A DNA stretch of 63,952 nt, filler included, from Bigelowiella natans CCMP2755 (GCA_000320545.1; 9 parts of 9 records of this genome joined end to end with filler, not necessarily neighbours in it), one strand, 5' to 3'. Counted from the whole stretch's first letter, positions 2,269-60,751 are shown. The notes: a model not told the origin generated them from the sequence alone. A program made the numbers and translations.

Positions 2269-3157
2269 GTGTTTTGTAAGTTTTCATTCGCACAAGAGAC
2301 TCCGAGTTTATTTGTTTGATACAGAAGCCTCTTATAGTTAGCTGGACCTCTTGAGCCAGTTTTTGCCGGTAGGCTTTCATGTTTTTCCCAGCCTTTTTCT
2401 AACAGTTGCAGATCAAAATTAGAAGATTAAATTTTACGAAACATGGTGATTGAAAGTAATGGGAAACGGGAGGCCAAAAATCCCACGCCACATACCATCA
2501 GCCCCCCTCGGAAGCCTGAACTAGGCCAGAGCAGTTAAAGCCCCTTCAGGCGGTGAGAGAACCTACTGTGTAGCGCTCGTTGGGACACATGTAACGGAAA
2601 AGGGATTATGAGCCCTACCTCCTTAATTAAATTTCTCGCAACGACCGGTCAGTGCAGAACGTTGGGCAGCAATCTGCCTCCGCCCCTCTCGTATCTTCTC
2701 TATTCTCTAACAGACGAATACTCGTACAGTAGCTGTCAAGCAGGCGAGCCACAGTAGATTTCCTACGACATCAAACTTTGCATGTCGCGGATGCAAAATG
2801 TTACAACATTCCGATCGATTACACAACCGTGCTCTGAAATTGAAACTGTCACATTTCACCGTGTCCACCGTCGTCGCGACCCATCTAAGGCCCTACGTTC
2901 CTGTGGCGATGCGCGCGCCGAACGCCGCAGCGCAGCGCGCCGGGAAAACATGGCGCGACAAACCCAGTGCCCGGAAGGCCGGAAGGGATTGTTGAGGAAA
3001 AATATCGGCAGAATACAAGGATTCCCCGCTAAAACCGGGGGGTTCAATGTTGGCTAGAATCTCCATGGATGCTATGTCTTTGCCTGTTGCTGCACATGCT
3101 CGTCAGAGTGGGCTGAACACACGAATGACGAGAGGGGGAGGCTGAGGATGATGACGA

Positions 3158-3243
3158 TGAAGAAGAAGAAGAAGAAGAAGAAGAAGAAGAAGAAGAAGAA
3201 GAAGAAGAAGAAGAAGAAGAAGAAGAAGAAGAAGAAGAAGAAG
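3158..3243 (+). repeat. Long pure (GAA)n microsatellite
   Basis: About 86 nt of uninterrupted gaa repeats; it produces the spurious poly-K/S/F ORFs. Confidence 0.95.
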
Positions 3244-3970
3244 AGGACATCAATCATTGTGAGCGAAGGATGCGATGTCCAATCGCCACTGCTAGACTGC
3301 TGCCAGGTGCAGACTGCTAGACTGCTGGCCCCTGGACTGGTTCAACGCACCGAAGAGCTGACAAAACCTGACTGCGACACTGCGATGGCCGAGGAGGAGC
3401 AGCTCCCACGGACGCATCGAGAAAGCTACACGTCAAGGACAAGATCGATGGACATCACACCATCATCTGTGATTTGCTGGCACACCTTGACATTTGACGT
3501 GACCATCATCAGTTCAGAAGTGATGTCTGATGTCTCTGCAACCTCGTCCTACGAAAATTTTCAACCCGGGAATCAGCGCGCTGTTGTGCTCAAGAGATTA
3601 AGTGCAGCAGCTTTTCATAAATCTTCGCCCATCCAACTCGAAGCAATTTCACTTTGACGACAATGACTAGATCTAGAGATGACATTGTTGTGCGGATGCA
3701 AACGCATGCATGCAGATGGATCAATCTTGTGCAGGAGCCTGCAACGTGCGATGTATGAGATGCAGTCATAGACACCATGAGCTGCCGACCGAAATGAACA
3801 AGAATGCACATTAATTGTCATTCCGCATCCATCGATCGCACATTCAGCAACAACATGAGGTCAGGAATGCATGCATAGCAGTGGATATACAGTTTGCCTC
3901 ATTACAAACGCGTCTTAGAAACAATGAATTCTGATCACATCACAGTTCTGTTTTTAACCCTCGATATTCA

Positions 3971-5432
3971 TTAACTGAAGACGGTGATTCTACTGCCGTT
4001 GGAACTACTTTCTCTCGCTTGTCTCTGACTGCTGAGATCTCACAGCTTCTTTGATGTAATACTGCCCCACAAATTCGCCGAGGAGCCGACGATACGAGGT
4101 CACATACACCGCTTAGCGATGAAGATGAAGTTGGCGACGATCTTGCCGAGGACGATATTGGGCAGTTTTTTTTCCATTCCTAAGAGATGCGTAATAAAAA
4201 GGCGAACGTGAAGTACTATACCACGAAAAAAAGGGTGCTTTCGAGAAAAAAAACATCAGAATAAGAAACGTTCCTACGCCGCTGCTACTGCTCATCTCCC
4301 TGTCTCTAATTTTAAAAAAATTCCCTTCAGCTCCATCGCCCCCCCGCGCAAGCAGCAGCTACCTTTCCAAGCAGGAAGATGCGCTCCGAAACAACGTCGG
4401 CATTGGTCGCCACAGATTCCTCACACGCGAGGCGCAATATGTGGCCAGACTTGACCGTAGCCCTATCCAGACCTTTACCCCTTTTCCTGACCTGCGTATC
4501 CGCGGGGAGGCAGGGACGATTTAAATGAGTACACGGCCGGCAGGCGAAGAACGCTATGCTGAGCATCTCTCGGTGACCATGAATTCTCGGTCGTGCTTTC
4601 CTTCTTTCGTGTAGAGTTGTGTGGCTTCTCCTTCATGTATGGCGGCGTACTTACCGGCTTTTCCAGGCGCTGCAGCTCCCATCCGGCGCTGGCTCCCTAA
4701 TCGCGTAATACGAAAGGTGATGAAGATGGTTGATGATTGCCACATGGTCGAGAGATATGAGGGGCATGGATCAGATAGGAGTATCAGCTCTCAAGCCTAC
4801 CTCCTTCTCCCCCTTCTTTGTCACATGGTACATATCCATCCAAACCGCAGGTTCAGGGGGCGAGGGAGCAATTCCTAAGTAAATAAACAGTCGTTGGATA
4901 CACGCAATCGATGGCTGTGCCCACATGTGATGATGATGAATATTTATGTGCGCAAATCAGAGGAAGGTTCATATACGTAACTTGCCATGCGTGCTGCAAT
5001 CTTATCCCCTCCAATCCCGACAGGCTCTTGCACAACGGAACAATGGCCACTCTCCACGTAGTTCGCAATCAGTCCCTCGTCCTCAAACGCGCGACGATTC
5101 GACCTAGATACGGTATAATATTGTCAGAAAAAAAAGTGTGTGTGTGTGTGTGTGCGCGCGCTTGCGCGCCTATACATAATCCCTGCGTTTAACCATGCAG
5201 AAACTGCAACTGAGCAGCACTAGAGTCGACATATGCAAGCACCTAGCTGCGTTGAGGTAAACGATGATCTCCTCGATAGAAGCTTCACAAATACTGCACA
5301 AAAGAGCTTCCACGGCTTCGCGGATATCCTCGCGATCCCGCTCTGGCAATGAAACGGTTGGATCCTGGTACTCCTGAGGAGAGTTAAGTGCAAAGACCTT
5401 GGCGCATATCGTATTCTCTCTTCTCCGGGCAA

Positions 5433-5487
<55 letters not shown>

Positions 5488-6991: not shown

Positions 6992-7184
6992 AACGCGTCT
7001 AAGACAATTTCACTGCGACAACTAATGCGGCATGTCGCAATCCAAAAACAGATCCTACTCTCTGAAGATCCGGCCAATCGAGCAAAAATCTTAGGAAATT
7101 GAAGGTTTCCCCTATGTAACGACTCAGAAACTCGGCCTTCACAATGAGAGAACGCCCTGTTATAAACGGAAGGGAAAGAGCTTG

Positions 7185-7192
7185 GCGCCAAA
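7185..7192 (-). promoter_or_regulatory. Candidate E2F site TTTGGCGC in the short divergent promoter upstream of SPC19
   Basis: ttggcgccaaa at 7182-7192 matches the TTTSSCGC consensus on the minus strand, about 110 nt before a kinetochore gene ATG. Confidence 0.3.
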
Positions 7193-9528: not shown

Positions 9529-10143
9529 TATTCATCATATTTCTGTATGTGCTGTTGGTCAATCCATGTCGATGGCCTCGTCATTCCACAAAAGAATTAA
9601 CTGAATGCGCGATCCCCCCCCCTTCCCCCCCTCTGCCTCAGTCCAAATCTCCAGCGCAGTGAGCTTCGTGATGGAGATGATCCTCAACTCGAAGACCGTG
9701 TCACGCGACGGATATAGAGTTGTTTCAAAGAGGGAAGTGTACAAGGTTATACTGAATACCGATACATCGTGGTGGTGCTTATTTCTCCCCCTCCCCCCCC
9801 CCCCNNNNNNNNNNNNNNNNNNNNNNNNNNNNNNNNNNNNNNNNNNNNTTAATTAATTAANNNNNNNNNNNNNNNNNNNNNNNNNNNNNNNNNNNNNNNN
9901 NNNNATGTTGTCCCGGATAAAGAAATTTTGGCTTCAAAATTGATGACCGCCCCGCCGCCCGCCCCCTCTCTCTCTCTCTGTATATTTCTCTCTTACTCAT
10001 CTACCTCTTCCTTCTCCCCCCGCGTTCTTCCTCTCTCCTCACCCCTCACCCCTTACCCCTCTAGGCAGCAGTGCAATTCGATCCATACCGATCAGGGCTA
10101 AGAATAGTCGCAGACCCCAGAGGTGATTCATCTTCAAATCCTA

Positions 10144-10181
<38 letters not shown>

Positions 10182-11403
10182 TTTTATTATATACAAAGAC
10201 ATACACGCACGCACGCACGCACGCGCCGTGCTACATGCAGCGTTGTTGCAAATCTTTGACGTTTCCCTCGCCTCAGGTCGGTTCCTTGCCGTCAGTGACG
10301 GGTACGCTCGGATATCTATATGGGACTCGCTCAGGTGATCGATTGATTTCATTCCACGACGGCAAAAATTTAAGCCGCGCCAGCAGCAGTGACCGCAACA
10401 ACAACAACTGCTTTCCTTCTTCCAGGAGGCGGTGCAATCAATCAAGCATCAAACAACGGCAACTAATGCACAACGTCCGCTAACCCCCCCCTCCCCCTCC
10501 CCCGTTTCTCATCATCAGGATGGTCGCTGTGAGGTGGCTCCGAGGCTACCGCGACGCGCAATGCGGATGGCTGATAGCAAACAGTAGCACAGATCAGAAG
10601 AGGAGGAAGAGGATGATGAAGATGAAGAAAAAGGTCAAAGGCGCAAATGGCGACGAGGAGAAGGGTGTCAACGAGGTCAGCAGCGGCTGCGGACTGTACT
10701 TGGTAGTTTACGTCGCAAGAAGAGGCCTTCTCGAGGCCTGGGCGATATCGGTAGTGACTTCAACTGAAGGAGGAGGAGGGGGAGGGGGAGGGGGGAGAAT
10801 CTGAAGATGTGAGCAAATAGAGCGATTACTGGTAACAGTGATCATGGACATAGCATCTGCGAGGTTGAAAATCGTCTTCAAGCTACGATTGCTTGTGCTT
10901 CACTTTCTGCCCAACTGTGTGTTACGTTTCCACGTCTCATCCCCCCCCTTTCCTCCTCTTCCTCTCCACCCGCACAGGGGAGTCCTGAAAGCGGGCGCAT
11001 AGGTACGAGGGGCGAGGAGAAAGGAAGGAAATAAACCAGAAGGATTAGGAACACGCGTTGTTGAGAGAATGTAAACATGAATGCTTGCGGGGAAAGGAGT
11101 TGGGTGCACGTGCATGCATCCGTGCGTTCCCCCGCTTCCCCAATGATTGACCACTAATCCCCAAGATGCCAGGCAATTGTGTGTGTACAGGGTTCACTGT
11201 GTAAATGATGAAGACGCCGAAGCATCTGCTCATTGTCTGCTGCTGCTGCTGTGCCGCATTGAGCGATTGTTTATGAAATAGGTGCGCGTAACGTCGGGAC
11301 AGGGGCGCGGCTCTGCTACGATACCGACGCACAAGGCGGTTGCAGCTGTGCCATGTTGCGGTCGGACGGGAGGACGAGTGCGATCAGCATCACTGCTCCT
11401 TGA
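8385..11403 (+). CDS. RAB3GAP2: Rab3 GTPase-activating protein non-catalytic subunit (RAB3GAP2 N-terminal domain) with coiled-coil N-terminus; spans a scaffold gap
   Basis: Exons GRFLAVSDGYARISIWDSL, MVAVRWLRGYRDAQCGWL, GLYLVVYVARRGLLEAW and ARNVGTGARLCY match the RAB3GAP2 motifs (AAVTDDFGRV; IAIRMWKGYRDAQIGW; FLVIYAPRRGILEVW; AFNVGKHCRLLY). Stop TGA is at 11401-11403. Linkage of the 8385-9750 exons across the gap is inferred. Confidence 0.8.
9805..9904. other. Scaffold gap linker N44-TTAATTAATTAA-N44 (also at 15665, 39739, 48669, 55059, 57337, 59287, 61961)
   Basis: Identical 100-nt spacer with a six-frame stop linker, found eight times; assembly artefact. Confidence 0.97.
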
Positions 11404-11873
11404 TCTTCATGCACTTGCCATTCTAGCATTATCAATAAAGCATTAACAACACTGTGATTTGTGACGAGGAGGATCATCGGAATCGCACATGTGTTTCATG
11501 AGACAGCCGTGCGTGTGCGCGCCCTCGGCAAGATGAAGTCAGCAAGCCTTATTTTCTGATGCATGCTGTAGCTTGCCACAGCATGTACCATTGGATTTTG
11601 TGTTAATCGTGAGTGGACCCACATTGCTAGATTGTATATCGGCTAGCTCAATCGTCTTTGTGGGCAAACACACTCGTATGCACTTGCTCCTGCTACGCAG
11701 TGCATGCATGCACTGGTAGCTGGCATTCGATCATTAACAACAAAACGAATTCCCTCTTCCTATCATCGTCAAGCTGCCTTAGCTAAGCCAAAGTTGCAAA
11801 GGGGCCATGCATGAGCGCATGCAGTCTCTATGACAGCGCAGCGTTGTTTCTCAGGCGTTCTCGACTAATTAAA

Positions 11874-12529
11874 TTAGGTAGCCGCCTTGGTGCTCTTCGA
11901 AATGTCAAATACTATTGGCTCATGCCTGGCCGCTCCTAGCATCGTACAAGAGGCTGCATTGATGCACACGGTCCCGCTAACCTCCTCCACCTTGACTCCA
12001 TAGCTGTACAACATGCAAAACAGTTGACAATATGGCCGGTGCGGTGACACAAGAATGAAAAAAGGTTTTTTATTTTTTTTATCCCGCAGTAACTATCGAT
12101 AGATCCAAGCTCTAGGCTTCGTATTGGGGGGGGGGGGATTAGCAGGGGATGGAGGGAGGGGCAGGAGCATAATCAACACCAGCCACATCTGAAAGACGGC
12201 ACGAGAAAGGCAGAGGAAGGAGGAAACACGTACTCTTCGTGGATGTGCCCGAAGACGCAGAACTTTGGCTTGAGTCTCCGAAGGCCAGCAAGCAGAGGAC
12301 GACTGCCTACACGATGGCCGCCTGATGGTCAAACAGCAACGTGACCGGCTCAAGACACAATGGGGATATTGCGACTTTACGCTCCTATCACTGATGATGG
12401 ATGAGCATGCAAGGCTGCGTTCCAACCCAACACAGATGATCCTCCTCCATTGCAGTGCATTTGCAAAAAATAAAATATAAAATGAAAAAAGGAAAAAAAG
12501 CAAGGAAAAATCGAAGATATGCGTGTTTT

Positions 12530-12568
<39 letters not shown>

Positions 12569-13162
12569 AGCTGATTACTCCAACAGCGATCCAAGACTCC
12601 TCGTGGAGGAGAATGCGTGAGGAGTACATCGACCTTCCCCATCTGCGGCACCAGCTTCTTCTCTGTCGTCATCAGCGAAAGGGGGAGGGGCAGGAGGGAG
12701 GGGGGTGGAAATGAGGAGAAATGACCGAAGAAAGGTGATAGCATGCGACGAGAGTTACTGCTCCTGAGGCAATTTATGTGGAGATGTAATTCGTATTTTA
12801 GTAAATTGTCCGCCCAGAAACGAAGATGGTAAATTGTGTCCACTGAAAGCGCTAGCCGACCCCAAAATTCAGATAGGTGATGCGAGGAGCGGTTCCAGGC
12901 CCAGAGCCTCCTGATTCGATCGATTGTAAAGATGATTGGGGTTGTGAGCTGACAGACGACTAGAAGAAATGAAGAAAGGGAAAGGGAGAAGGACTTATCT
13001 ATTCAATGCAAGAATGATGGTGGCACTTGTGTGCTGTGCCTGCTCATGCTCGTATACCTTCTTCATTTTCTATTTTCTCTTTTACCTTTTACATATTTAG
13101 CTATGGCATATTCTGTACGCTCTCTACGCTCCTCACATTCTCTCCATTCTCTACATTCTCTC

Positions 13163-13204
<42 letters not shown>

Positions 13205-13209
13205 GCCTT

Positions 13210-13240
<31 letters not shown>

Positions 13241-14229
13241 TTCTCTTCTCTCGTCTCTCACGTCCTCCCTCCCCTTGAAGATTGTTATCACCCGCTGTCC
13301 TTCGGCATATTTGGAGTCGCAAACACCCGAACACCTACCGACGTTGTTATCGTCATCTTCTTGCTACGACCAACGATCTTCACTACCAACATCCTCTCAA
13401 GATCCGCAAGGGGGAAGGGAGGAAGGGTCATTTACTGCTTTTGATGATATACCATCGATCTCAATCCCTTCGTTCTCCAAGTAGCGGCAGTTGGTCAGGA
13501 AGGCCTTGGCCTGGGCACATACGCGCAAATGGTGCGGTTAAGCTCCCTCCGCTGTAGGCGGGCACTTTTGTAGTTGCTTGTTCAGAGGATGATGGTGGTG
13601 GTGATGATGATGATAATGATAATGATGATGATGCAATGAGGTGGTCAATGATGACGATGGGTTGATGGATTATTCGAATGCGTCGAGGAGGAAGAGGATG
13701 ATGATGATGTTGTCTTCCATGGCCCTCGAGCCTCCAGCGCGACAAGCGCACAAAAGGGGAGGGGGGGCATGATAATTCGTACGACCTACACGTCAGTTGT
13801 TGATATAGTAACCAGGGAAAACAGCTACTACTACTTCTTACTACCTTCACGGAGTCCTGTTTCTCGTCGTGCCATTTCCTCCATTCTCTGTCGTAGAATC
13901 CGGTGTCCATTCTGATGCGTGATGAAAACACCGAATGAGTATGCGCGCGCACGCAAACCTTTCTTCACATAGCTCATCACCATCGCTATCATGTAGCCGT
14001 GATACAAAATGGTGCGAAGACAGCATAAGGAGGGCTCTACTACTACTGCTGCTGCTAACTCCATTATTTGTTGTTTTTTAGCTTTTACCAAAAAATTATC
14101 TTCTACTACCATGCCCCCTGCCCTGCAGCATGCACTTACGACGCACGTTAGGTCATGGTTTCCGGACACAACAATCTTGTGGCGATGTGGCAGCGTTCCT
14201 AGCCAACGGTTGAACTCGAAGATTTCCTA

Positions 14230-14266
<37 letters not shown>

Positions 14267-14535
14267 AAGAGAGAGAGGACATTGTCTGTACGCGAACGTT
14301 CAGAATACTTTTATGGTAGTACACTTCTCGCATATATGCTACGACAGCCCCGCTTACTCTCCTCAAAGTAAGAAATGACAAAATATTCCGATGATTTTGG
14401 CCGTTTGATGTGTCGTTGATATCGCTCTCTATTGCGGTGCCTTCTCGGTGCCGAATTTGGTGAAGTCGCCAGCGTGAAGCAACACGTCCCCGTCTGGGAC
14501 CTAGCACACAGCAATTTTTTTAGCAATCAAATGTT

Positions 14536-14574
<39 letters not shown>

Positions 14575-18279: not shown

Positions 18280-18410
18280 GTACTAATAGCATAATGTTAA
18301 ATCATTCTACATTGCAGAACGTACGCCGTTTGGTAAAAGAGACAATGACGCAAGCTGATAGATCTTTTGGCAGCGATTCCTCAAAGGACTTGAAAACGGC
18401 CGATGTATGA
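15769..18410 (+). CDS. CRAL-TRIO/Sec14 lipid-binding domain protein (5' end in gap)
   Basis: Exons FPHICNFCTDKYDRP, EEYFAYEMYR|WEYMSQLL, VIIVDMQKFPTSIF, ELLGPIIVINAPPVFQVIWQF and QVSVYGRDFEAKLSELISAK match the Sec14 motifs (TDKdGRPV; iiiDm; iINAP..F..iW). Confidence 0.8.
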
Positions 18411-19808
18411 ACATGTGAACACGCTGACATCATAGAAGTACATGCCGCTTACAGTTGTTACATCCATCCAAGCTAGCAAGTGCGCGCGCGACCGCGGTGC
18501 GTTTTTCTGCTGCTAATGACTAGATGAGCTAGTTTTGATGAATTGGCTGCTGCGGTGCGCAACATGTCTAGATTGAAGCGGGGTCAAAGGCAATGTCGCT
18601 GCATTTCATCAGGCATTCTCAGAACAAATTCGCATGAGTGAGTGAATGATGATGCATCTCTGATCCAGCTAGCCAGTGATGTGCCAGTCTAGTGGCATCT
18701 AGGCCTGTGCGTCTGTGCAATCTAGCAAGCGGATGAAGACGTAGCTGTGCTAGCTAGTCAGTGTGGTGATGCTCTGAACTTGCGCACCATAGCACCAAAG
18801 GCTGGAAATTACGATGCAAATCGAATGACTTCATTTGGACCATGCTTGCCGCCAAAGTAGCAAAAGCGAACCACTCTGCAAGACCATTGCAGATCGACTG
18901 CCTCAGCAATTGAATCACACCTCACTTGCATCTCCGACGAGTAGCTGAGGACATCTAGACATCTCTGTGACACTCGGTGCTCAACAAATGCGCCAAGTGC
19001 ATGACGTGTGCGACGTGGAGGGTTGATGAAGCGTGATCATGTTGTCGTAGTCATGTGGTCGTGCGCAAGGCTGGAACCACTGGACTGCTGTGGCATGGTG
19101 CTGGAGAAGGCGCGATGCAAATCAAGCATGGAAAACCATGTTCAATCATCCGTCTGCGAACAAGCGAGTAAATGCTTGTTTTTCCAGTGCGACTTTGGGA
19201 GCGTGCGGTTTTGTGCCAGAAGCTTTGAAGTCACGATGTTCCGATGTTTTCCGGGCCAAACAGCCAGGCAATGAGTCCACCCACTTTGCTTGGTCCACGT
19301 GTCGAACGTGTCCTACCTGAGAAGTGCGCAAAACGTGAAAAGGCGGTAATTTAGGCCACCCCCCTCAGGATTCTGATGTGCAGTTGCCTGGACGCTGTGC
19401 TTGGTGCATGCACGAAACAGAAAGCGTGTTCTTCCATGCAGGGACTCCATTTTCGTGTTGTTTAACAGTTTGCAAAGTCAAAAAATTGGTCCATAACCAT
19501 GTCGCAGCCTTGAAAGGTCGTGGAATCCGACACGAATTTGCTGTTCGCGTGGAATTCTCGGAGAATTTTTCCCGGAAGAGGAACATTCGCTGTCGCTTCC
19601 GAAGTTTTGGGCCGGCGCTGCTCAAATCAGGGGAAGGGTCCTATTTCTATTATTTTGGGCCGCAAAAGGCTAATAATTATTGATAAATGTATTCCTTTTT
19701 CGAAATAAAAGTGATTTTTTTGGCACTCGGTAGGTCTTACCACATCTGATCTCTCCGTCGCCGAGAGCCTCCCCCTCTAACACACAGAACAGAATCACCA
19801 AGGATACA

Positions 19809-32927: not shown

Positions 32928-34381
32928 ATGGACCATGTTCCAGAGGATTCTCAAGAGAGGTTCCTCTTCCCTGCCTTCTAATTTATCAAAAATCAAAAGA
33001 GAGGGATAGATTTGTGTCAGTACACTATATTTGCTTCCCCATGTCTCAGGTAGCAAGCCTGTCAAGGCATTTTTATCATCCCCCAGGGCGAATTTGCGTA
33101 CTGTGAGTTACACTATTTGGCAAACCCGGACATGTTTCTTCATTTTTTTGTTGATACTTTACGTGGTTTTGACCACGTGTACGAGCATATGGGGCGAGAA
33201 AGACATTCGACAGCTTACACCAATCAGTTTCGAAGAATATCAGCAACGTGTCCTATCTAAAGCGCAAAGAATGGCGGATGTCAAGAGTAAGATCGATCTA
33301 ACTAAATTGTTTGAGAATCATTTCCTAATTTTTACTATTTTTATGGACCACACAATAGATAACTCTTCAGACTTCTTCGTAACCAAATATCATCATCACT
33401 GTTTGTCTCCTTCTGACTAATTAAATAGCTGTTCTGCGACAAGACGTACAGCCGTCCTGGCTAGCATTGAGTTCGGACTCCTACTTGACAGACAAGAAGT
33501 TCTATCTTGCTTGCTTCGCGATCTTTAGAAACGAAGAGACTCAGCTGGAGGAATGGATAACGCACTATCTTAGTACTGGCGTGGAGCACTTCTTCCTCAT
33601 AGACCATGGGCCTAGCACTGATTCTTCGGCCAAGATTTTAAGCAAGTTTAGCAAGGAATTGGTGACGCGATGGGTGTTCACCGATCGTGATCCAGGCGCA
33701 CAGGCGCGCGCATATCACAAGTTCTTTCCGCAAGTGAAGGCACAGACAGAGTGGATGATAATGGCTGATGTTGACGAGTATGTGACCACCGCCTCAGGGG
33801 AATCAGGGCGCGCAACGCTCCTAAAGCACTTCGAACACAAGGCCGATTATGTGCAGATCCCAGGGCTATTTTTTGGTAGCAGTGGTCTCAAAAAGCAGCC
33901 GGAAAACGTCTTATGTCATTTTCGAAAGAGAGGCAACTACTCTCGTTGGACGAAGCATCGATGGATGAATCCCGCCCTCACGAAGTATTGGCTTCGGACG
34001 AGCGTCATAAAACATGTGGCAGACATCAACATCCACCATTCCTATAGCATTCCAGGGTCGCGCAGATACTGGTCGAATGGGACAATGATAACGAACGAGG
34101 CTATTTCTGTTCAGCTGAATGAGTCATCCATAGCCCACAACTTCCTTCTACTGAATCATCATTACAGGATAATGTCAGAAGAGTACTATGTTGATATTCG
34201 TGGGAAAAGGGGTAATGTGATGGCTGGCAATTTTACCCTGACCAGGGAGCACGCACTGCGAGAAATGCGAGCGTATGATGGCATCTACAATGACATCGTA
34301 GATACTACTCTTTCTCGCAACAGCCCGTACTGCCTTGACTTCAACCCAAGAAATCAACGACGTGTGATCGAAGCAAAATAG
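32928..34381 (+). CDS. Type II membrane glycosyltransferase, GT92/GT2-like (GT-A fold)
   Basis: Catalytic exon: YLACFAIFRNEETQLEEWITHYLSTGVEHFFLIDHGPSTDSS..QARAY..WMIMADVDEY (DxD). An upstream exon carries a TM helix, TCFFIFLLILYVVLTT. Two short 5' introns are inferred. Confidence 0.85.
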
Positions 34382-35653: not shown

Positions 35654-35760
35654 TGGATCTGCTCGCAGTGCACGACAATGAACAATGAACAATGAACAAT
35701 GATGAAAAACCACATCTCCAAAGTATGACATGAAACTAGCAACGTGCGAAATGCAGTGCC
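35654..35760 (+). pseudogene. Decayed RanBP2-type zinc-finger fragment
   Basis: WICSQCTTMN is followed by tandem ACAATGA copies and a stop; ATCEMQC follows out of register. It lies inside a TpA-free tract. Confidence 0.4.
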
Positions 35761-36668
35761 TGCGAACTCGCTTCAGTGAGGGCCTGACCAGCAAGCCAGC
35801 GCGGAGTTCGTACAAATTGGCACGAACTGAACATTGAATGCATCACAACTGACAGCTGAGTGACGACGACGCAAAGCATCCCATCCCGAGCAGGAACTTC
35901 CTGACAGCCACGTCCACACGGAGATCAACGTCAGGGACCGTCGAAGGAGCGCCGAGCAAGGTTCTGGTTTTGAAAGAATCCACGAATCATTGTATCAAAA
36001 AAATGAACAAGAGCACGCAGGAGATGTAGGGCCGAGAGCTGCTCTGATGCTGGAGAACAATTGAGTTCTCACAACATTCAGGTGAGCGCAATGATGAATG
36101 AGGTGGTTGACACGTTGAACAACACCGGCATGTCGCTGGATCGCACAGAGAGCAGACAGAGGATGAGGGGGGCAAATTGTGAATTTTGGCCCTGAGTTCT
36201 TCAGTTTCGTGAGTCCCAGCACGGAACTTGAGTTGCAAAAAAACACCCAAATGATCGTGCCACTCATCAAGATGGCGTTCAAAGAGTCTGGAGGCTGGCC
36301 CACCAACGTGGCTCTTGGCCCAAGCTCTTGGTTTGGAAACGGGCTAGCGGGGGCATCGGGTTTGATGGACAAGTGAGAGCTACAACGCAAATTGCCATTG
36401 GTGGACAGCAGAGCCCTGACTCTACGGTTTAGGTCTAGATCAACAAGCTTGGGACAGGTCTGATCAAGGTTAGCCAACATGTCAAACCCACGCGCAGAGA
36501 GGCCAGCACGATGCGGTGAAGGATGGACAGCAAATGTGGATGCGGTTTTAACGGTTCTACCGGTGTCTAATTGTCGCACTTAGTAAATTCCTGTGTTTCT
36601 TTAAAATTTGGAAAGTCTATCACAAATGCTCACAAATTCAACCTCGCGACATCTTGTGTGTGATGTCG

Positions 36669-49126: not shown

Positions 49127-49405
49127 ACAGTATGGGATTTATGGCAATTCTGACGGATTTGCGAAGTCGCACTCACCGAAACCCCTTGATATTTTGATAA
49201 ATAAAGCACATGAAACTGGAATATTTAGCAGGATATTATCGGCTCGGGTATTATTTTGACTTCAGATACTACTCGCGGAGGTCTGAACATCTCTTCTTGT
49301 TCCGAACAGCACTCCATCTCGGCACAAATCTTATCGGTGGAATTACCGAATGGGAGGGGATGATCATACTTCTAGGGAATCCCAGGGGGACGCGCTTCTG
49401 CGACA

Positions 49406-50815
49406 ATGGAAATAACGGTGTTTTATGACAATATCAAGACTATTTGCTCAATGACGGAAATGGATCCTTGTGTACCCCCCTATCCGTACTCAGAGCTTCC
49501 CACAGCCAAACCCAAACTTGGACGTCCTCTGCGGAACCGAAGAAAATACTATCGACTAGCTCTAATCGCAATTTGTTTTGTATGCTGTTTAAGAATTGTA
49601 AATGAGAGAAAATGGCCAACAGGGCACGAAGGGACACTTTCTTCTCCAGCCCTCACCACCATCAGTAAAAGCCCTTTTCTAGGGATCAAAGGGCGGAGAT
49701 CGACAGGATCTATAATCACAAATAGAAGAATATCGTCAGCACATACTTCATTCAAGCGGAGGACGCCATCCGTATCGTGCTTTTCTTCTCGGAACATTAA
49801 ACCCTTGTACGACAACGCGACAGCAACGACCGCAGAAGGTGCCCCCATCCCACCAGAACTCACCGACTGGTTAATCGCTAGCCAGGATTTCAGACCAGGT
49901 AAACAAATGTCCCAGATATTTCTCGCCGATGAATCCGTCGCGATTGACGTAGCCGCAGCAGCGGACGTGAAACCAGGCGACCTGGTGGTAGAAATCGGGG
50001 CAGGGGGGGGGACGCTCACACGCGCATTGGTGAAGCAAGGCGCTTATGTCCTCGCGGTAGAAGCAGTTTCAGATCTTGCCAACGAACTGGATAAGTTCTT
50101 CGACAGGGAACACGTTAAGATTATCAACGCTGATTTCTTGAAGCTCGATCTGCGTGCAGTCGTCGGTGAGGAGCTCCAGCGGCGGCCTGGGTTTTACCAA
50201 AGTGTCAAGCTTCTATCCAACCTTCCGTATCACATCACTACCCCAGTTCTGCAGAAAGTCCTGCCCCTGGACGACGTCTTCGAGAAGGCCGTGATAATGC
50301 TCCAGCACGAGGCAGCAAAGCGATTCGCCTCCGCTGTTCCACGGGACCGCGACTATCGCTTTATGAACTTCTTCGTCGATTACTATTGCAATGCAACGTA
50401 CAGGTTTAAGGTGGGGCGTCACTGCTATCGGCCCAACCCCGGCGTAGCAGGCGGCGTGATCGAATTCAACCTGCAGGAAAGGAATCCTTTGGTGATGGAC
50501 GTGAACGGGACTTCGGAGTCGCTACTTGCGTTTGCCAAGAGCGCGTTTAAGGCCAAGCGCAAGACATTGCGCCAAACCCTCAACGGGTTTAATGACTACA
50601 GTGGCGAATACATTGAGACTGTTCTCGAGGACGCCCTAGGCCTTTCGAAACTAGCTAGGGCAGAAGAACTGAGCTTTGAGCAGCTGGTGATGCTGTACAA
50701 CGTACTTGAAAGCCGTGAGATTGAAGCAAGGCCCAGACCGGTTGAACCGCCGAAAAAACTTAATTGGACTAAGGCACATCTTAACCAAACATTGTGGTGG
50801 TCGAGCTTCATTTAG
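49406..50815 (+). CDS. ksgA: 16S rRNA adenine dimethyltransferase KsgA/RsmA (plastid PFC1-like), intronless, bipartite targeting peptide
   Basis: KQMSQIFL, VVEIGAGGGTLT (SAM motif I), VLAVE, IINADFLKLD, SNLPYHITTP, IMLQHEAAKR, AFKAKRKTLR and RAEELSFEQL. N-terminal hydrophobic LALIAICFVCCL is followed by an S/R-rich stretch. Confidence 0.93.
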   Translation: MEITVFYDNIKTICSMTEMDPCVPPYPYSELPTAKPKLGRPLRNRRKYYRLALIAICFVCCLRIVNERKWPTGHEGTLSSPALTTISKSPFLGIKGRRSTGSIITNRRISSAHTSFKRRTPSVSCFSSRNIKPLYDNATATTAEGAPIPPELTDWLIASQDFRPGKQMSQIFLADESVAIDVAAAADVKPGDLVVEIGAGGGTLTRALVKQGAYVLAVEAVSDLANELDKFFDREHVKIINADFLKLDLRAVVGEELQRRPGFYQSVKLLSNLPYHITTPVLQKVLPLDDVFEKAVIMLQHEAAKRFASAVPRDRDYRFMNFFVDYYCNATYRFKVGRHCYRPNPGVAGGVIEFNLQERNPLVMDVNGTSESLLAFAKSAFKAKRKTLRQTLNGFNDYSGEYIETVLEDALGLSKLARAEELSFEQLVMLYNVLESREIEARPRPVEPPKKLNWTKAHLNQTLWWSSFI

Positions 50816-51782
50816 TAGTGGTGCGGTGAGGCCAACGTCCGGGGGGATTGCACGACTGGGGCGGGGGGATGATGCCGTTTTGAGAAGCGATTGCTACAGC
50901 TGCCTCCCTATCAAGGAACACACCAATTTGTATTATAAGATAGGTCGACTACCAAAATGTTATTAGATGCTTACACGTGAATGATAATGCAATAGATTAA
51001 CAGAGAATAAACAATTGCAGCGAGTAATTCGAAATGACTTTTTAAGATTGCATTGCGATGCGTAAGGGTGGAGGATGTAGCGTATACTAGCTAGCTAGCG
51101 TATCATATTTTATTTTTCGTGCTTTTCGAGAAATCCTATGTTTACTTGCCAAAATGTGCCTGCTACGCAAGATGCTATGGACAATTTTGTCCTGGTTTGC
51201 TTGCATCATCAATGTCATGTGGAGGCTTTGGAGCGCGTGCACCATCACAATTTTTTGATGTCTGCAAAAAAAGGCACACAATGGCAGTTGTCACTGTGCT
51301 TCAAGATCACAACAATGCATGATCAAGTGGCATGTCAAGATGAAAGTGACAAATCAGTGCATGGACAGATGCAATTGGACGGTGCAGTGTTCGCACGAAA
51401 CCGATGTGAATTCAATGTCACGTCCACCACAGAACAGCACGACGTGGTGCCACAATCAGGATGACTGCAGTTGTTGAAGAGATTCAACCACTTCACAACA
51501 CCCGTCTCACACACGTGCATGTTTCTGCTGTGACTGCACGTTTCATGCATTTCAAATTGGCATTCGTGTGCACATCTGACAGTCTGCTTGCCAGATGGCA
51601 CATCATCCCTGAATCTCTAGCATCCACCCACTCTGCCATCACTGCCTAGCTAGCACTGTCAGAGGAAGTCCATGTGTTCCACGACACCACGCATGCTTCA
51701 TGCATCGCACCTGCTTCTTCACAATGACCGCACGGGACAACAAGAAGCTTCCGAGATCGCACACTGTGCCGATGACGCGCAT

Positions 51783-53302
51783 CTACTCCTGCACATGTTC
51801 ATTTTTTCGAGCTTGTGGCGACTGCTTCCGCTTTTTCGAGTTGATGGAGACGACTTCTGCCCCCAACCCCCGCTTCAATTCCGTGCTCAAGAAGTGCAAA
51901 TCCCTCAAGTCTCTGTGGAACACCTGGATCCGTCGCTCAACACAATGATGCTTGATGAAGCTTTTGAGTTCATCATCGCTTGCCAAGTCACAGGGAGTCT
52001 CCCCATTTCTATTCTTGGCCTCAATGTTTGCCTTCATGTCAACCAGGTACTTTACGATCTCCAAATGACCCCTTTTGGAACCCCAAACCAACGGAGTGTT
52101 ACCTAATATAATGTATTGATATCGTTACAAATTATGTAACATCATCTACAACTGCTGTGGCAATGCTAGTATTGGTACCCACCATCTCCGTCTTTTGCCT
52201 CAATGTTTGCCTTCGTGTCAATCAGGCACTTCACGATCTCCAAATGACCTTTAAAGGAACCCCAAACCAACGGAGTTTTACCTAATATGATGTATTGAAA
52301 TGTTATAATAAATTATTCAACATCTTCTTCAACCTTTTGTCTCAATGCTAGTATTAGTACCCACCATCTCCGTCTTTCGCTTCAATGTTTGCCTTCATGT
52401 CAACCAGGTACTTTACGATCTCCAAATGACCTTTAAAGGAACCCGCGATCAACGGAGTGTCACCTAATATAATGTATTGAAATTGTTGTAATAAATTATG
52501 TAACATCATCTACAACTGCTGTCGCAATGCTAGTATTGGTACCCACCATCTTCATCTTTCGCCTCAATGTTTGCCTTCGTGTCAACCAGGTACTTTACGA
52601 TCTCCAAATGACCCCTTTTGGAACCAGCGATCAACGGAGTATCACCTTATAGCAAAATGGCCACATCTTTGCACATCAACAATGATTAATGTCATCTTCC
52701 AAGTGTTGGCAAAATTTCCTGTCGGAGTTTTCATGACTCATTCTGTCACGACTTACATCAATACCTATGCGAAGCGACTCGTTTTTTTTAGTAAAGAAAA
52801 ATATCATGCATTCATTGCCAATACTCGTTTGTTGTTTATTGCTGGATGATGAACTTCTCACTGTTCGAACGACAAGCCTAATGTCTTGAAAATATCTAAT
52901 TGCAAACGCTGGTCGTTTGTTTTCCATGATAAATCATGACCCACATCCATAGAAATGTCACTTTTTCTCACTGTTTCTGCTGCTATCAGTGTCACCAAGC
53001 CCATTGTCAATGAACACTACTTTCTACTACTACCACTACTATTACAACAACTGCTACTAGTGCAGCAGCTGCAGCAGCTTCTGCTCACATCAACTAAATG
53101 TCAATCAAACACCAACACTACGTGTGCCATGAATCACTCAGCACTCCAACCACTGCCACCACAATGTCAACGCTGCAGCTTGCTACCCACCGTTCCAACC
53201 GCACTCCTCAATATTTGCGTTTTCCAAAATCAAACGCTTCAGATAGGGAAGGTCGTTGCTGTGTATTGCTTTGAAGATGCTGCTGGAGGTATCAGACGAC
53301 AT
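51783..53302 (-). CDS. Ankyrin-repeat protein, one repeat per exon
   Basis: First exon MSSDTSSSIFKAIHSNDLPYLKRLILENANIEECGWNG. Four near-identical exons of the type GDTPLIAGSKRGHLEIVKYLVDTKANIEAKDED follow. The last exon ends ..EHVQE*. Confidence 0.88.
52003..52646. repeat. Tandem repeat with a ~181-nt unit (99-nt ankyrin exon + ~82-nt intron), about 3.5 copies
   Basis: tcaatgtttgccttc[a/g]tgtcaa..gatctccaaatgacc..aacggagt..cctaatat..caatgctagtatt[g/a]gtacccaccatct recurs at about 52020, 52200, 52382 and 52564. Confidence 0.95.
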
Positions 53303-56322: not shown

Positions 56323-57763
56323 TTTGTTCGTGTTTTGCTCTTATGCGTGCTAGCGTGCGCGCCCGCCGATGTCACGAATGAATTTAATGAAAGTGTGCGT
56401 TGAGAGATTTCTCTGTGGCTATTGGAAGCAAAGCACATGTAAAAATAATCCGCAGCGACGTACCCTTCGATATGTAGAGAACAGAGGATGGACATGCAGC
56501 TCCATTGTTCAAGTGCACTAGCTAGCTATTCTAGACGTGCATAAGGCGTACGATTTGCAAGTCAATCACCACCAAGATCGATGCACGCACAAAAGCTGTG
56601 CACAAATGCACCCCCCGCCCCGCCCCCTCCCCACTCTCTAACCCTGAAGGATTGGGCTCGGTTTAATCCCGACATGACAGAGGCGGAAATACTAGACCAC
56701 ACGTGCGGCGCCAATGAAGCCAACATTGAAATCGTGAGCATTGGCTGCCTTTAAATTGAGCTCCGCGCGGCGGCCCTTCGTTTTTCTCATGGGGATGATG
56801 ATGGTGGCTGATTGTGTGTTGGGCACCCCCTCACGCGCTCCCTGGCGTCTCACCACTGTAGTGTTCTGTGCGAAGATGTGATGATGGCAACATGGAGCGC
56901 AGAAGTAGTGCAAGCAGCTTTTTTGCTCTGTGCGGTCGTCCGGTTGTCGCAAATCACTCCGCAATGTGATGCTGGACGTGGCATGCGCTGTTGCGCATGC
57001 ATGTAGGCGAAGTTTTGAAGCTCAAATGATGCACAATTTTGTGTGATTTCGCACACTCTGTGACTGTTGACAATTGTGCGTGTCAGCCCAGTGTCGTGCA
57101 CCCACTGCTGTTCCAGTGCACTGTCACGTCAATGTGGGGACCATGTGGTCCCTGCACGTGCATGCGCAAGAAACACACGCACCCATGCACACCACATGCA
57201 CCTAAAAAGCACACGTGCTCTGTTCACATCCACACATGCACCAAATGGCACACACGTAGTTGCAGGTGCATGTGAAGTAGGTGATGCACATGTCGTAGAC
57301 TGCCTGCACCACGCGCAATGCTGCCGCTGCTGCCCANNNNNNNNNNNNNNNNNNNNNNNNNNNNNNNNNNNNNNNNNNNNTTAATTAATTAANNNNNNNN
57401 NNNNNNNNNNNNNNNNNNNNNNNNNNNNNNNNNNNNACGTACATTTGTTCTCAGCGTGCGTAGCTATGGCTAGGATAATGTGTAAAGTCTGCATATGCAT
57501 CGCATTGCGTTTTGAAAATTGCAGCAGCTAGAGTTGTGCTGTGCTTGCAAGCTTTGCTACAGAGCGCACAGCATGTATCGTATGATTGACACAACGAGGT
57601 AATAAGTCTATCGCAGCACATATACTACACTAGAGTACATTGTAATCATAATAGTTACGATTGGCGCAATTTACATTCGTATTGCGTTGTTATCACGCAC
57701 GCTACGTCTCTCTTTCCAACTCTCTCTCTCTTACACACACACTATACACACACACACACACAC

Positions 57764-57803
<40 letters not shown>

Positions 57804-58088
57804 AATCAGCTCCTCGCCAAAAAGTTGTCTCTCAGCGTACGTCATTGAGGCCTTTATCTTATGGTAACATTCCTCTCTTGCAGTCTATGTTGTCGCCACT
57901 GCGAAGACCCGATGAAGACTGCAACAAGCATGGCTAGCAGCTAACATAGCTTTGTGCGTTGTTTCATGGTCGATGGACAAACGGTAATAAGAAGCTTTAC
58001 GTTCGTTCTCATGGCTCATGAGCACAGGCTCGCGCACATCCATCATTTGATGATGACTATTCCACAGTCATCATCATCATCATCATCG

Positions 58089-58585
58089 TCATGTGCATGT
58101 AGCCTGTGGAAAACGGACCTCCATGGCACCAGTGTGGTTGAACTGACACACTGCGGAGAACAGTCTCAGAGAAGGCGACAAAACCTTCTTCGCCTGCACT
58201 GACGGTTGCCCATCATTCCCCCCCTTATCATCACATGCTGCTATCTCCGCCGCAACTAATAATGCTGCAGAGACCTGCACTTCCTCCCCCTCCACTCCGT
58301 TTACAAGCACTGATATACCATCATCATCATCATGATCATCACCATCATCCAGCTCCGAGAGCTGATCAAATCTCACCGAAGAGACTGCCACCCACTTCTC
58401 TTGCTCTCCTAGCAGCGCCCATCCGTTGGGGAGAATCGGCGAGAGGTTCCACAACTGAAACGACGACTTGTCGCTGCTTGGCACACGCAGCGGATTCTGC
58501 GCGTCAACGATGCTGAGATTGTGGGTCGAGTTGGCCTCGAAACCTACGAATTGCCACCCATTCCCCTCACCATCGCCAACGCTTG

Positions 58586-58622
<37 letters not shown>

Positions 58623-59165
58623 TTCTCCTTGCAAGAACAAGATGTCATCAATCGTAACAGTGTGAGCGATGGATTCAGCGGAGAGCACCTGGGTGGTAGT
58701 GGTGGTGGTGGTGGTGGGGATGTACGTGAGATGGAACGTGACGACAACAACGAGGACAATAGTGGTGGTGGTGGTGATGACAGCCCAACAGAGAGAACAT
58801 GGAGAAAAGTGAGAAAAGATTAAACACAATAAACACAGAGCGTAACACAAACGTAATTCAGTTGTTTTTCTTTCTCTCCTGCGCACTCAGAAAGCTGCAC
58901 AGACACACGTACCTGTGCGTGAACAACAATATCGTCGTCATTCCGCCCCTCTTTCTTCATGATCATCGACTGTGCGGCCCATACATCGCCCGCCGCTTCC
59001 GCAGCAAAGACCGTGCTTCTCAGCGCAGAATCAACAATGCGCGCAGGGACATCTGGACGCAATAGCTTCCCATCCTTTCGGCAGGACTTGGCCAGAAGTT
59101 CTCGGTCTAAATCGCCGATGCCATCGCTGGGTGCCACTGGACCGCCCGTCAGGGTGGATACCTTA
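58089..59165 (-). CDS. C-terminal part of a GH36/raffinose-synthase-like glycoside hydrolase (5' part in gap)
   Basis: STLTGGPVAPSDGIGDLDRELLAKSCRKDGKLLRPDVPA resembles the SGGPVyvSD..nfdLL..lv..DG.iLR motif. The last exon has FQLWNLSPILPNGWALLGEQEKWVAVSSVRF. Confidence 0.65.
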
Positions 59166-60751
59166 CATTCAGCATGCAGAAATTATTGGGCTAGTCTTCA
59201 AACACTGCTAGTTTTGCAGTAAGAAGGGGGGATGGGGGGGGGGGGGGGGGGAGGGCGGAGTGGAACAGGCATGAGTTACTGCTCCANNNNNNNNNNNNNN
59301 NNNNNNNNNNNNNNNNNNNNNNNNNNNNNNTTAATTAATTAANNNNNNNNNNNNNNNNNNNNNNNNNNNNNNNNNNNNNNNNNNNNATGTAAAGAAGCGA
59401 ACCCCGTCCCCCCCCCCCCCTTCCTCTTCCTTCCCAGGATGGGTCAGGCGGGTGTTTCACCCAGGCCAAGAGAGAGAGAGAGAGAGAAAAAGATAAAAGA
59501 AAGCGGTATCAGAGAAAATTTACAAAACCAATGTTCTAACCCGCAGAAACCCGGGAACCTAAAAAAGAGGCGTTTGGGGGAGAAGGGGAAAAACACTAGC
59601 TCCGGAGTTGGGAAGGGGGGGGGGGGGGGCGACCCGTAGAGAAGCTTGTTAACGACGGTGGTAGAGGACGTCATCAGCAAGACCAGAGCGACGGAAAGAA
59701 GGGCGGCCTGCTGGGTAGTAATCACAACAATGGCGCCCAGGACATTCACTCGCAGCTGCTTCTGCTTGGACAAGCGGCTGAGTCGGTCGCCGACTCGATG
59801 TGATGTATTATCAGATCACGCCAGCGCATCGATTTTTGCAGGATCCTCATACCTACAAAAATAAATTATGGGATTGGCTGCTTAAAAATCGACGCTGCGG
59901 CGTGCTTGATCGCGCGTGCCCACCCCGGCACTCGCCCTACCCTATTAATCAATAATGAAAATTTATACTGCCTTCGCCTGTGTGAAGACGATCGCACCGG
60001 CTTGTCACATAGATGAGAGCGACGACACATAGCATCGCTGCTGTTGTCAAGATATGACCATATATCCGTCCAAAATGATACCTGCGCGTGCATATACATC
60101 ACGCAGGCTGCCATACCTAGTCTTAGCAGGCTAGCAGGGCCTATCATCAGTAGACCAATAATTTGGTATGAGACACCCACATACAGCCACACATCTGCGT
60201 TGTCACGTTGTCGTGGCAGCGCTGTATGTGCTCATGCGAGCACCGGCTATAACGTCATTGTAAGCTGGGCACCTGCATCAGCTCAGGCGATGTAAAGTCT
60301 TCCGCACCACACGCTGAATTATATTATTATTAGCAGCGCATTGATTAGAAATGTGAGGGCTGCAGCCATCATATAATCACTTATTATATTCTGTAACGAT
60401 CGACTACGCACCATAAGACGGATGTAATTAATCAATTAAAGCTGCTCAACACTAGCTAGTGAATAGTCATCCTTATGCACTATGTACTGCTAGACAGCTC
60501 GACAGAGTACCTACATATATGTGTTCTGCTAGCATTGAACAACGCTATTGTCATAGATCTGTCGCGCACATATGTGCATTGACATAAGGCAGCAGCCTGC
60601 ACTTTGCATGTATGTACTCAGCCATGCATGCGCAGCCGTCATAGTCGCGCTTTCATTCTAATTCTTGCTTAGTTGTTGTTGAGTCTAGCGTAGTGCCATG
60701 TACGTCGAGTCGAATGTGTCTCAATTTGGGCCACTTTTATTCATTGCTTGC

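What the first reader, a model, noticed from the sequence alone, without database searches (positions are those of the whole stretch)
3040..60750. Recurring TpA-depleted, CpA/TpG-rich tracts just downstream of gene 3' ends: candidate undescribed TpA-directed mutation or base-modification system
Seen: distinct blocks at about 3040-3890, 18410-19500, 34400-36400, 51180-52010 and 56800-57336 have very few TA dinucleotides. They are rich in TGCA/CATG/CACA/TGTG and still hold many CpGs. Weaker versions occur at 11400-11870, 24370-25200 and 60300-60750. Each block lies directly behind an inferred stop codon, often between convergent genes. Promoters and introns lack this signature, and introns are full of (TA)n. 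Established: CpG decay and fungal RIP are C-to-T processes that remove CpG or create TpA, the opposite of this pattern. Base J (made by JBP thymidine hydroxylases) marks Pol II termination sites in kinetoplastids, and dinoflagellates carry 5-hydroxymethyluracil. Inference: a modified T (or A) at TpA marks termination or silenced DNA here and drives TA-to-CA/TG substitution.
Basis: partly seen in the sequence, partly recalled or inferred. Interest (0 to 1): 0.85.

Follow-up and report, generated by a model that had tools for sequence, protein, structure and literature searches.

The report
Scars of algal TpA hypermutation
Five short stretches between genes of a marine alga have lost most of their TA pairs, two of them overlapping repeated DNA whose sister copies still hold TA at the same spots, which likely marks them as old scars of a TA-to-TG/CA mutation process already reported in this alga in a 2026 preprint.

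Summary
The five strong tracts are real: TpA o/e 0.07-0.41 against 0.76, CpA/TpG 1.4-2.2, CpG little changed. Two of the three 'weak' tracts are not TA-poor (1.02, 1.12). The DNA is chlorarachniophyte, very likely Bigelowiella natans. A bioRxiv preprint (10.64898/2026.01.13.699255) already shows TpA-to-TpG/CpA hypermutation in this species in mutation-accumulation lines, maps TpA-poor clusters and proposes an ADAT2-like deaminase. So the mutator exists but is described. Here, half of tract 3 is the 3' end of a high-copy element that looks like a non-LTR retrotransposon. Most of tract 4 is the 3' end of a multi-copy ankyrin gene. Sister copies differ at TA/CA/TG sites, including a lost TAA stop. 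Not in the preprint's main text: these 0.5-2 kb spacer tracts, sharp edges, spill into apparently unique DNA, and a context hierarchy in which CTAG and CTAC/GTAG survive while ATA/TAT contexts are nearly gone. No evidence for base J, hmU or a termination mark. New targets of a known process.

The parts
3040..3890 (.). Tract 1: TA-poor spacer with a (GAA)n run; origin not identified
   Evidence: TA o/e 0.34; no Pfam hit in its 6 fragments; copy number not tested
18410..19500 (.). Tract 2: TA-poor spacer between a likely stop at 18408-18410 and a likely next start at 19809; 11 CTAG survive
   Evidence: TA o/e 0.41; CTAG 11 vs 1.6 in shuffles; gene ends by reading only; copy number not tested
33425..34381 (+). 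Last exon of a glycosyltransferase gene; transcript ends about 34460
   Evidence: PF13704 E 1.7e-14; X15 contig 33048-34460
34500..35590 (.). Tract 3, left half: TA-depleted DNA with no multi-copy relatives laid at 85% identity; barely covered by RNA
   Evidence: X15 depth 0.3-4 vs 95 in the gene; a filter hole in the DNA run means absence of relatives is not proven
35676..36500 (-). Tract 3, right half: 5'-truncated 3' end of a high-copy element, likely a non-LTR retrotransposon, ending in a short 7-bp tandem repeat
   Evidence: X1 depth 22,567 / 2,970-2,984 / 526 vs 89 single copy; tblastn 1e-39 to B. natans model Bigna1 72328; that model's N-terminal part matches clusters of RVT_1 proteins at TM 0.70-0.79
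49376..50815 (+). Intronless KsgA/RsmA rRNA dimethyltransferase; transcript ends at 51024
   Evidence: PF00398 E 3.5e-34; relatives 75% Chlorarachnion, 71% Amorphochlora; X15 contig 49461-51024
51177..52010 (.). Tract 4: strongest scar, 4 TA in 831 bp, sharp edges at 51176 and 52010
51400..52124 (-). Last exon and 3' region of one member of a multi-copy ankyrin gene family; paralog TA sites read CA/TG here, including Tyr to Cys at residue 45 and a TAA stop read as CAA
   Evidence: PF00023 E 2e-7; paralog contigs and differences; classification
52015..52651 (-). Tandem ankyrin exon-intron units (about 180 bp, 86-89% alike) that keep their TA, outside the scar
   Evidence: self-blast; 13-15 TA per unit
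56800..57336 (.). Tract 5: TA-poor spacer running into an assembly gap; 6 of 7 surviving TA are GTAG
   Evidence: TA o/e 0.25; copy number not tested

Best explanation
The tracts have lost most TpA to TpG/CpA and are likely old, nearly exhausted scars of the TpA hypermutation process reported in Bigelowiella natans, acting here on short silent spacer DNA that holds retrotransposon relics and repeated genes. Shown here: TA loss with a CA/TG gain and CpG roughly unchanged; two tracts overlap multi-copy DNA whose other copies keep TA, or carry the reciprocal CA/TG, at the same positions; the tracts are barely covered by RNA; survival of TA depends strongly on its flanks. Taken from the preprint: the process is an ongoing DNA mutation, TpA only, in bursts, on integrated viral DNA. 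Inferred: a targeted single-base editor, most simply a TadA/ADAT-type adenine deaminase (A to inosine, read as G), is recruited to silenced repeat-bearing chromatin, works on both strands, spreads into neighbouring unique DNA and stops near the ends of active transcripts and at promoters. The position behind stop codons would then follow from where silent DNA can sit in a gene-dense genome, not from a termination mark.
For: Per kb, core tracts hold TA 13, CA+TG 207, CG 46; background 52, 137, 53; TA-normal 3' flanks 78, 174, 44, so the CA/TG gain is not explained by CpG decay. Tract 4: of the 40 shown (of 245) differences, 22 transitions lie in 51400-52010; 19 fall in pyrimidine-purine dinucleotides (52% expected, p 0.0008). 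At 7 sites this copy has CA/TG where paralog contigs have TA, and 3 more are reciprocal CA/TG pairs. Tract 3: of the 40 shown (of 87) differences, 31 are transitions, 21 at such dinucleotides (48% expected, p 0.02); 8 sites are TA-type, and 3 of them (35725, 35812, 36381) still read TA in the window while other copies read TG or CA. The preprint found de novo TpA-to-TpG/CpA mutations in two viral inserts (231 of 302 nuclear mutations lay there), reverse-transcriptase and transposase domains enriched among TpA-poor CDS, and 124 depleted clusters. 1-3 of 63 one-kb windows here pass its cut-offs, depending on offset. AA/TT is not depleted (o/e 1.05 vs 1.07), matching a TpA-only process.
Against: Copy number was tested for only 2 of 5 tracts; tracts 1, 2 and 5 have no identified foreign or repeated origin. 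The left half of tract 3 and 51180-51400 show no multi-copy relatives. The most repeated DNA nearby, the tandem ankyrin units, keeps its TA, so repetition alone does not direct the process. CpG-type differences are as common as TA-type ones in tract 3 (8 vs 8 sites) and make up 6 rows in tract 4, so ordinary CpG change contributes between copies. The asymmetry in tract 4 is partly built in, because the tract was chosen for lacking TA; 2 of the 7 sites (51792, 51794) lie beside indels. Only the best-supported differences were displayed. No ongoing mutation, enzyme or chromatin mark was measured here. The species is inferred, not given.
Confidence: 0.8

Rival explanations
1. A termination mark, such as a modified T (base J, hmU) or A laid at gene 3' ends, drives the TA loss.
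For: Tracts 3 and 4 begin within about 40-150 bp of transcript ends. The tandem ankyrin units upstream escape while the gene's 3' part is hit. 3' flanks have a distinct composition, rich in CTAG and poor in CC/GG.
Against: 3' flanks at 24370-25200, 60300-60750, 50816-51179 and others keep normal or high TA. The preprint's live targets are integrated viral regions, one of them described as transcriptionally silent. Both tested tracts overlap repeats. Base J is described from kinetoplastids (search listing only); no such base was measured here.
Confidence: 0.07
2. The tracts are relics of intrinsically TA-poor mobile elements plus CpG decay; no local TpA mutator acted on them.
For: Half of tract 3 is a high-copy element. 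CpG-type differences between copies are frequent. CG o/e is 0.73.
Against: The tracts share no sequence. CG per kb is nearly unchanged while TA falls 4- to 6-fold. Paralogs keep TA where this ankyrin copy has CA/TG. Element copies carry TA, TG and CA at one site (35711-35712).
Confidence: 0.06
3. Selection against UpA in long 3' UTRs (RNA stability, cryptic poly(A) signals) keeps these stretches TA-poor.
For: Tract 4 covers the 3' region of a gene family with expressed members.
Against: Tract 3 has 0.3-4 RNA depth against 95 in the adjacent mRNA. The real KsgA 3' UTR (50816-51024) is TA-rich and the scar starts after it. Expressed paralogs keep TA.
Confidence: 0.03
4. Error-prone repair synthesis by a polymerase-eta-like enzyme (A to G at WA; recalled, not from a call) in repeatedly repaired spacers produces the pattern.
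For: It would give TA-to-TG/CA tracts without any deaminase.
Against: AA/TT is not depleted, and the preprint's mutations were all on TpA.
Confidence: 0.04

Closest known systems
TpA hypermutation of integrated viral and other foreign DNA in Bigelowiella natans (Mettrop et al., bioRxiv 10.64898/2026.01.13.699255; main text parts 1-4 of 5 read, supplements not seen)
   Same: Same inferred species, same TA-to-TG/CA direction, same TpA-poor and CpA/TpG-rich signature, mobile-element targets.
   Different: Their live targets are 25-186 kb viral inserts and their clusters need three consecutive 1-kb windows. These tracts are 0.5-2 kb spacers next to host genes and nearly exhausted of TA; one covers an ankyrin gene copy. 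Flank preferences and CTAG sparing are not in their main text (CTAG 0 and trinucleotide 0 occurrences).
Fungal repeat-induced point mutation (RIP)
   Same: Tract-wise, dinucleotide-specific transitions on repeated DNA, both strands; the preprint itself draws this comparison.
   Different: Opposite chemistry: RIP is C to T, this removes TpA. The most repeated neighbour here (ankyrin tandem) is spared, and the preprint's main target is single-copy.
ADAR and fungal ADAT-type A-to-I RNA editing (PMC4817773, passages read)
   Same: Strong preference for U/T just 5' of the edited A.
   Different: Those edit RNA and favour or tolerate a 3' G (ADAR G first; Fusarium A about equal to G). Here TA followed by G, or preceded by C, survives best, and the change is in DNA.
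Base J of kinetoplastids (search listing and abstract starts only)
   Different: No modified base is shown here; many 3' ends lack the scar; none of the six abstract starts seen mentions a mutagenic role.

Membership tests
B. natans TpA hypermutation targets | DNA is from B. natans | tested here: met
   Inferred: chlorarachniophyte relatives at 71-75%; another copy of the tract-3 element is a B. natans gene model.
B. natans TpA hypermutation targets | Rho TpA <= 0.43 with Rho CpA+TpG >= 1.52 in 1-kb windows | tested here: met
   1, 3, 2 and 1 of 63 windows at four offsets, in tracts 2, 3 and 4; tracts 1 and 5 do not reach it at 1-kb scale
B. natans TpA hypermutation targets | Cluster of at least three consecutive such windows | tested here: not met
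   At most two in a row
B. natans TpA hypermutation targets | Changes are TA to TG or TA to CA | tested here: met
   Copy differences at TA/CA/TG sites in tracts 3 and 4; CpG-type differences also occur
B. natans TpA hypermutation targets | Target is foreign or mobile DNA | tested here: inconclusive
   Likely retrotransposon in half of tract 3; ankyrin multigene copy of unknown origin in tract 4; nothing identified for tracts 1, 2 and 5
B. natans TpA hypermutation targets | Ongoing de novo mutation about 1000 times background | not testable with these tools
   Needs line-by-line variant calls; few TA targets remain in the tracts
Fungal RIP | C-to-T transitions that create TpA | tested here: not met
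   TA is lost and CA/TG gained
Fungal RIP | Targeting by sequence duplication | tested here: inconclusive
   Two tracts overlap repeats, but tandem ankyrin units are spared and flanks without laid relatives are hit
Base J / hmU termination mark | Modified thymine present at the locus | not testable with these tools
   Needs LC-MS or long-read kinetics
Base J / hmU termination mark | Signature at transcription ends generally | tested here: not met
   Seven 3' flanks pooled hold 78 TA per kb, above background; five of those gene ends rest on reading, two on RNA
ADAR/ADAT-type adenosine deaminase footprint | T immediately 5' of the changed A | tested here: met
   TA is the depleted dinucleotide; AA/TT is unchanged
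ADAR/ADAT-type adenosine deaminase footprint | 3' G favoured or tolerated | tested here: inconclusive
   CTAG and CTAC/GTAG survive best, but the strand test could not tell a 3' G effect from a 5' C effect
ADAR/ADAT-type adenosine deaminase footprint | Enzyme shown to edit this DNA | not tested
Non-LTR retrotransposon (tract 3 element) | Reverse transcriptase ORF, 5' truncation, simple-repeat 3' tail | tested here: inconclusive
   Depth falls away from the tail end and a tandem tail is present; structure-level match of a sister copy's upstream part to RVT_1 clusters; no Pfam or PDB sequence hit; the RT core is not in the window

The most novel reading that the evidence does not exclude
The mutator is not only an antiviral response but a standing editor of silent spacer chromatin across the genome. 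It spreads from retrotransposon relics into unique DNA and into host-type multigene copies, recoding them (Tyr to Cys, TAA stop to CAA), halts at active transcript ends, and spares CTAG because that palindrome, enriched about five-fold behind stop codons, is modified or protein-bound.
Probability: 0.25. Interest if true: 0.7.

Novelty: new member of a known kind. Interest (0 to 1): 0.38.

Why it matters
A DNA process that turns TA into TG/CA is rare, and its enzyme in B. natans is unknown. These tracts suggest the footprint is common and fine-grained: 5 tracts in this 64-kb window, below the preprint's cluster size, on a likely retrotransposon and on a gene-family copy. The flank hierarchy (ATA/TAT contexts nearly gone, CTAG kept) is a ready fingerprint. 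It can be checked on the preprint's 231 mutations and used to accept or reject the ADAT2 candidate in vitro. The core phenomenon is already in print, which caps the interest.

Tried and rejected
No whole genome was held, so the genome-wide 3'-end profile could not be made. Self-blastn found no similarity among the tracts; repeat scans found only short, low-identity pairs. Pfam on 70 tract fragments gave only sub-cutoff hits; Pfam on 95 flank fragments gave none, so gene ends at tracts 1, 2 and 5 rest on reading. Rfam and ARAGORN found nothing. Both metagenome scans for more element copies were empty. The ankyrin tail found no named relative (Atlas scores under 0.9). The large HMMER search never ran because the queue was full. 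A single-sequence fold of P0090 was unusable (pLDDT 35), so no fold search was made; PDB and Pfam sequence searches of it were empty. Strand asymmetry: TG exceeds CA in tracts 2 and 5, CA exceeds TG in tract 4, tract 3 is even, and tract 1 goes against a sense-strand rule; not pursued. The test of whether a 3' G or a 5' C protects was inconclusive: on 20 hand-picked events both models fit worse than no strand preference (lnL -17.2 and -23.3 vs -13.9). A 'CTAG only' model fits worse than an additive flank model (deviance 33-43 vs 7-11). Site 35851 was dropped from the TA-type count as an adjacent GA/AG swap. My first idea that 51941-51942 lies in a Tyr codon was wrong; it spans a codon junction. 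Excess 6-bp palindromes appeared clearly only in 24370-25200 (0 of 200 shuffles) and marginally in tract 2 (8 of 200). One 151-nt contig of run X20 matched tract 4 exactly at depth 2; too thin to use. Three look-ups in earlier scan findings returned nothing. Paper searches; the preprint was the only listed paper on TpA hypermutation in this group. PMC12730881, PMC13746701 and PMC13196603 were seen as passages only; the first had no occurrence of 'dinucleotide', the second none of 'TpA', the third none of 'CTAG'.


Full report
Observation. Sliding windows and masked counts confirm five TA-poor blocks with TA o/e 0.34, 0.41, 0.18, 0.07 and 0.25 against 0.76 elsewhere. Pooled CA is 1.59, TG 1.73 and CG 0.73 (0.94 elsewhere). 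TGCA, CATG and CACA/TGTG are 2.2-2.9 times background. In the window, 46 of 1189 overlapping 500-bp windows hold 6 or fewer TA; none did in 100 order-3 Markov simulations. The three weak blocks do not carry the signature: o/e 0.64, 1.02 and 1.12. They are ordinary 3' flanks with their own composition, rich in CA/TG, GC and CTAG and poor in CC/GG.

Organism. The intronless KsgA gene at 49376-50815 has its closest named relatives in Chlorarachnion (75%) and Amorphochlora (71%). An ORF in tract 3 matches a B. natans gene model, Bigna1 72328. I infer B. natans.

Accounting. Per kb, the core tracts (4,774 bp) hold TA 13, CA+TG 207 and CG 46. The rest of the window holds 52, 137 and 53, and seven TA-normal 3' flanks (2,764 bp) hold 78, 174 and 44. 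A starting composition midway between background and 3' flank would lose about 52 TA and gain about 51 CA+TG per kb with CG nearly unchanged; the midpoint is my assumption. AA/TT is not depleted.

Tract 3. RNA contigs of run X15 end the glycosyltransferase transcript at 34460, and the next gene's introns begin at 36744 on the same strand; RNA depth over the left half of the tract is 0.3-4 against 95. In DNA run X1, summed depth rises to 22,567 at 35676-35879, about 2,970 up to 36287 and 526 up to 36491, against 89 for a single-copy contig. The tool warns this is no true copy number, but the DNA is clearly repeated and truncated at one end. The high-depth end carries a 7-bp tandem tail. The matching gene model's upstream part aligns by predicted structure to clusters of RVT_1 proteins (TM 0.70-0.79); Pfam and PDB sequence searches were empty. 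It is likely the 3' end of a non-LTR retrotransposon on the minus strand. Of 87 differences between copies, 40 were shown: 31 transitions, 21 at pyrimidine-purine dinucleotides (48% expected, p 0.02), 8 TA-type sites and 8 CpG-type sites. At 35711-35712 the depths require TA and CA states and are most simply read with a TG state as well. At 35725 and 35812 the window keeps TA while all laid X1 contigs read TG. The left half (34500-35590) is as depleted but had no multi-copy relatives laid; a record filter leaves that unproven.

Tract 4. The KsgA transcript ends at 51024. TA is dense up to 51176, absent for 442 bp, then only 4 occur before 52010. From about 51400 the DNA is the 3' part of a minus-strand ankyrin gene with several paralogs, some expressed. 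Of 245 differences, 40 were shown, 31 of them in 51400-52010: 22 transitions, 19 at pyrimidine-purine dinucleotides (52% expected, p 0.0008). Seven sites read CA/TG here and TA in paralog contigs (two lie beside indels), three are reciprocal CA/TG pairs, and six rows are CpG-type. One change is Tyr to Cys at residue 45; another turns the paralogs' TAA into CAA, so this copy reads 10 codons further, assuming the same frame. The tandem ankyrin units just upstream, the most repeated DNA nearby, keep 13-15 TA each, with 3 TA-type among 18 variable columns in the first 90 aligned. Repetition alone therefore does not set the target.

Tracts 1, 2 and 5. By reading, tracts 1 and 2 lie between a 3' end and the next promoter, and tract 5 between convergent genes, ending at an assembly gap. 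B. natans has a median intergenic distance of 960 bp (PMC13746701 table, passage), so most spacer DNA lies close to a stop codon anyway.

Context. CTAG makes up 24 of 62 surviving TA in the core tracts, against 117 of 2,855 in background (p 8e-17) and 28 of 213 in TA-normal 3' flanks (p 3e-5). It exceeds dinucleotide shuffles in tracts 1-4 but is absent from tract 5, where 6 of 7 survivors are GTAG. Against the midpoint baseline, survival is 0.82 for CTAG, 0.48 for CTAC/GTAG, 0.27 for GTAA/TTAC and 0.02-0.14 for the rest. An additive flank model fits (p 0.09-0.35 across three baselines); a flat model and a CTAG-only model do not. The order is TAT > TAA > TAC > TAG, or equally ATA > TTA > GTA > CTA. 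A strand test on 20 hand-picked events favoured neither reading. CTAG is also enriched at 3' flanks without TA loss (10 per kb vs 2), so part of its survival may reflect a high starting level, regeneration or protection.

What is known. Mettrop et al. (bioRxiv 10.64898/2026.01.13.699255; parts 1-4 of 5 of the main text read; supplements not seen) found 231 of 302 nuclear mutations in two viral inserts, nearly all TpA to TpG/CpA, at about 6e-7 per site per generation and in only some lines. They report reverse-transcriptase and transposase domains among TpA-poor CDS and 124 depleted clusters of at least 3 kb, and propose an ADAT2-like deaminase by prediction. One to three of 63 one-kb windows here pass their cut-offs, never three in a row. 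Their main text has no occurrence of CTAG, trinucleotide or downstream; their supplementary tables may hold the mutation contexts and may list these loci. RNA editors of the ADAR and fungal type share the 5' U preference but favour or tolerate a 3' G (PMC4817773, passages).

Mechanism. Shown: tract-wise TA loss to TG/CA, overlap with repeated DNA in the two tracts tested, low RNA coverage, sharp edges, flank dependence. From the preprint: an active DNA-level TpA mutator in this species. Inferred: recruitment to silenced repeat-bearing spacer chromatin, action on both strands, spreading into unique DNA, and a TadA/ADAT-type adenine deaminase as the enzyme. I put 0.8 on the tracts being scars of that process and about 0.5 on a deaminase of that type as the enzyme. 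A modified-T termination mark is untested chemically and disfavoured by the many unscarred 3' ends.

Verdict. A real feature and a good catch from raw sequence, but the process is already described. The additions are small-scale spacer targets, a recoded ankyrin copy and a context fingerprint. New member of a known kind; interest 0.38.

Noticed in passing
window 24370-25200, 60300-60750, 11400-11870, 50816-51179, 56323-56600, 57440-57700: 3' flanks have their own signature without TA loss: pooled CC+GG 48 per kb vs 110 and CTAG 10 per kb vs 2; GC o/e 1.7-2.0 in the first three, and 54 six-base palindromes in 24370-25200 vs 23 expected. Could be a second mutation process or a 3'-end motif.
   Followed up: partly
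window 52015-52651 (-): Ankyrin exon and intron duplicated together as a roughly 180-bp tandem unit; laid contigs show many such units genome-wide and transcripts that join repeat exons.
   Followed up: partly
window 51813-51815 (-): This ankyrin copy reads CAA where paralog contigs read TAA, adding 10 codons.
   Followed up: yes
window 49376-50815 (+): Intronless KsgA/RsmA in an intron-rich genome, with a long N-terminal extension that may be a plastid-targeting leader; its next relatives after chlorarachniophytes that carry a name are prokaryotic, at 25-38% identity.
   Followed up: no
window 35676-36287 (-): Short reads of run X21 pile on the minus strand of the element at mostly under 99% identity, so other copies of the family appear to be transcribed.
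   Followed up: no
window 9805-9904 and six further gaps: Assembly gaps are filled with a fixed N run around a stop-in-all-frames spacer; its TA must be masked in composition scans.
   Followed up: yes
window 12000-15000 (-): Exon fragments with metallophosphoesterase-like motifs, by eye and recall only; no Pfam hit on single fragments.
   Followed up: no
window 52800-53250: A milder CA/TG-rich, TA-reduced patch upstream of the ankyrin units, possibly another partial scar.
   Followed up: no
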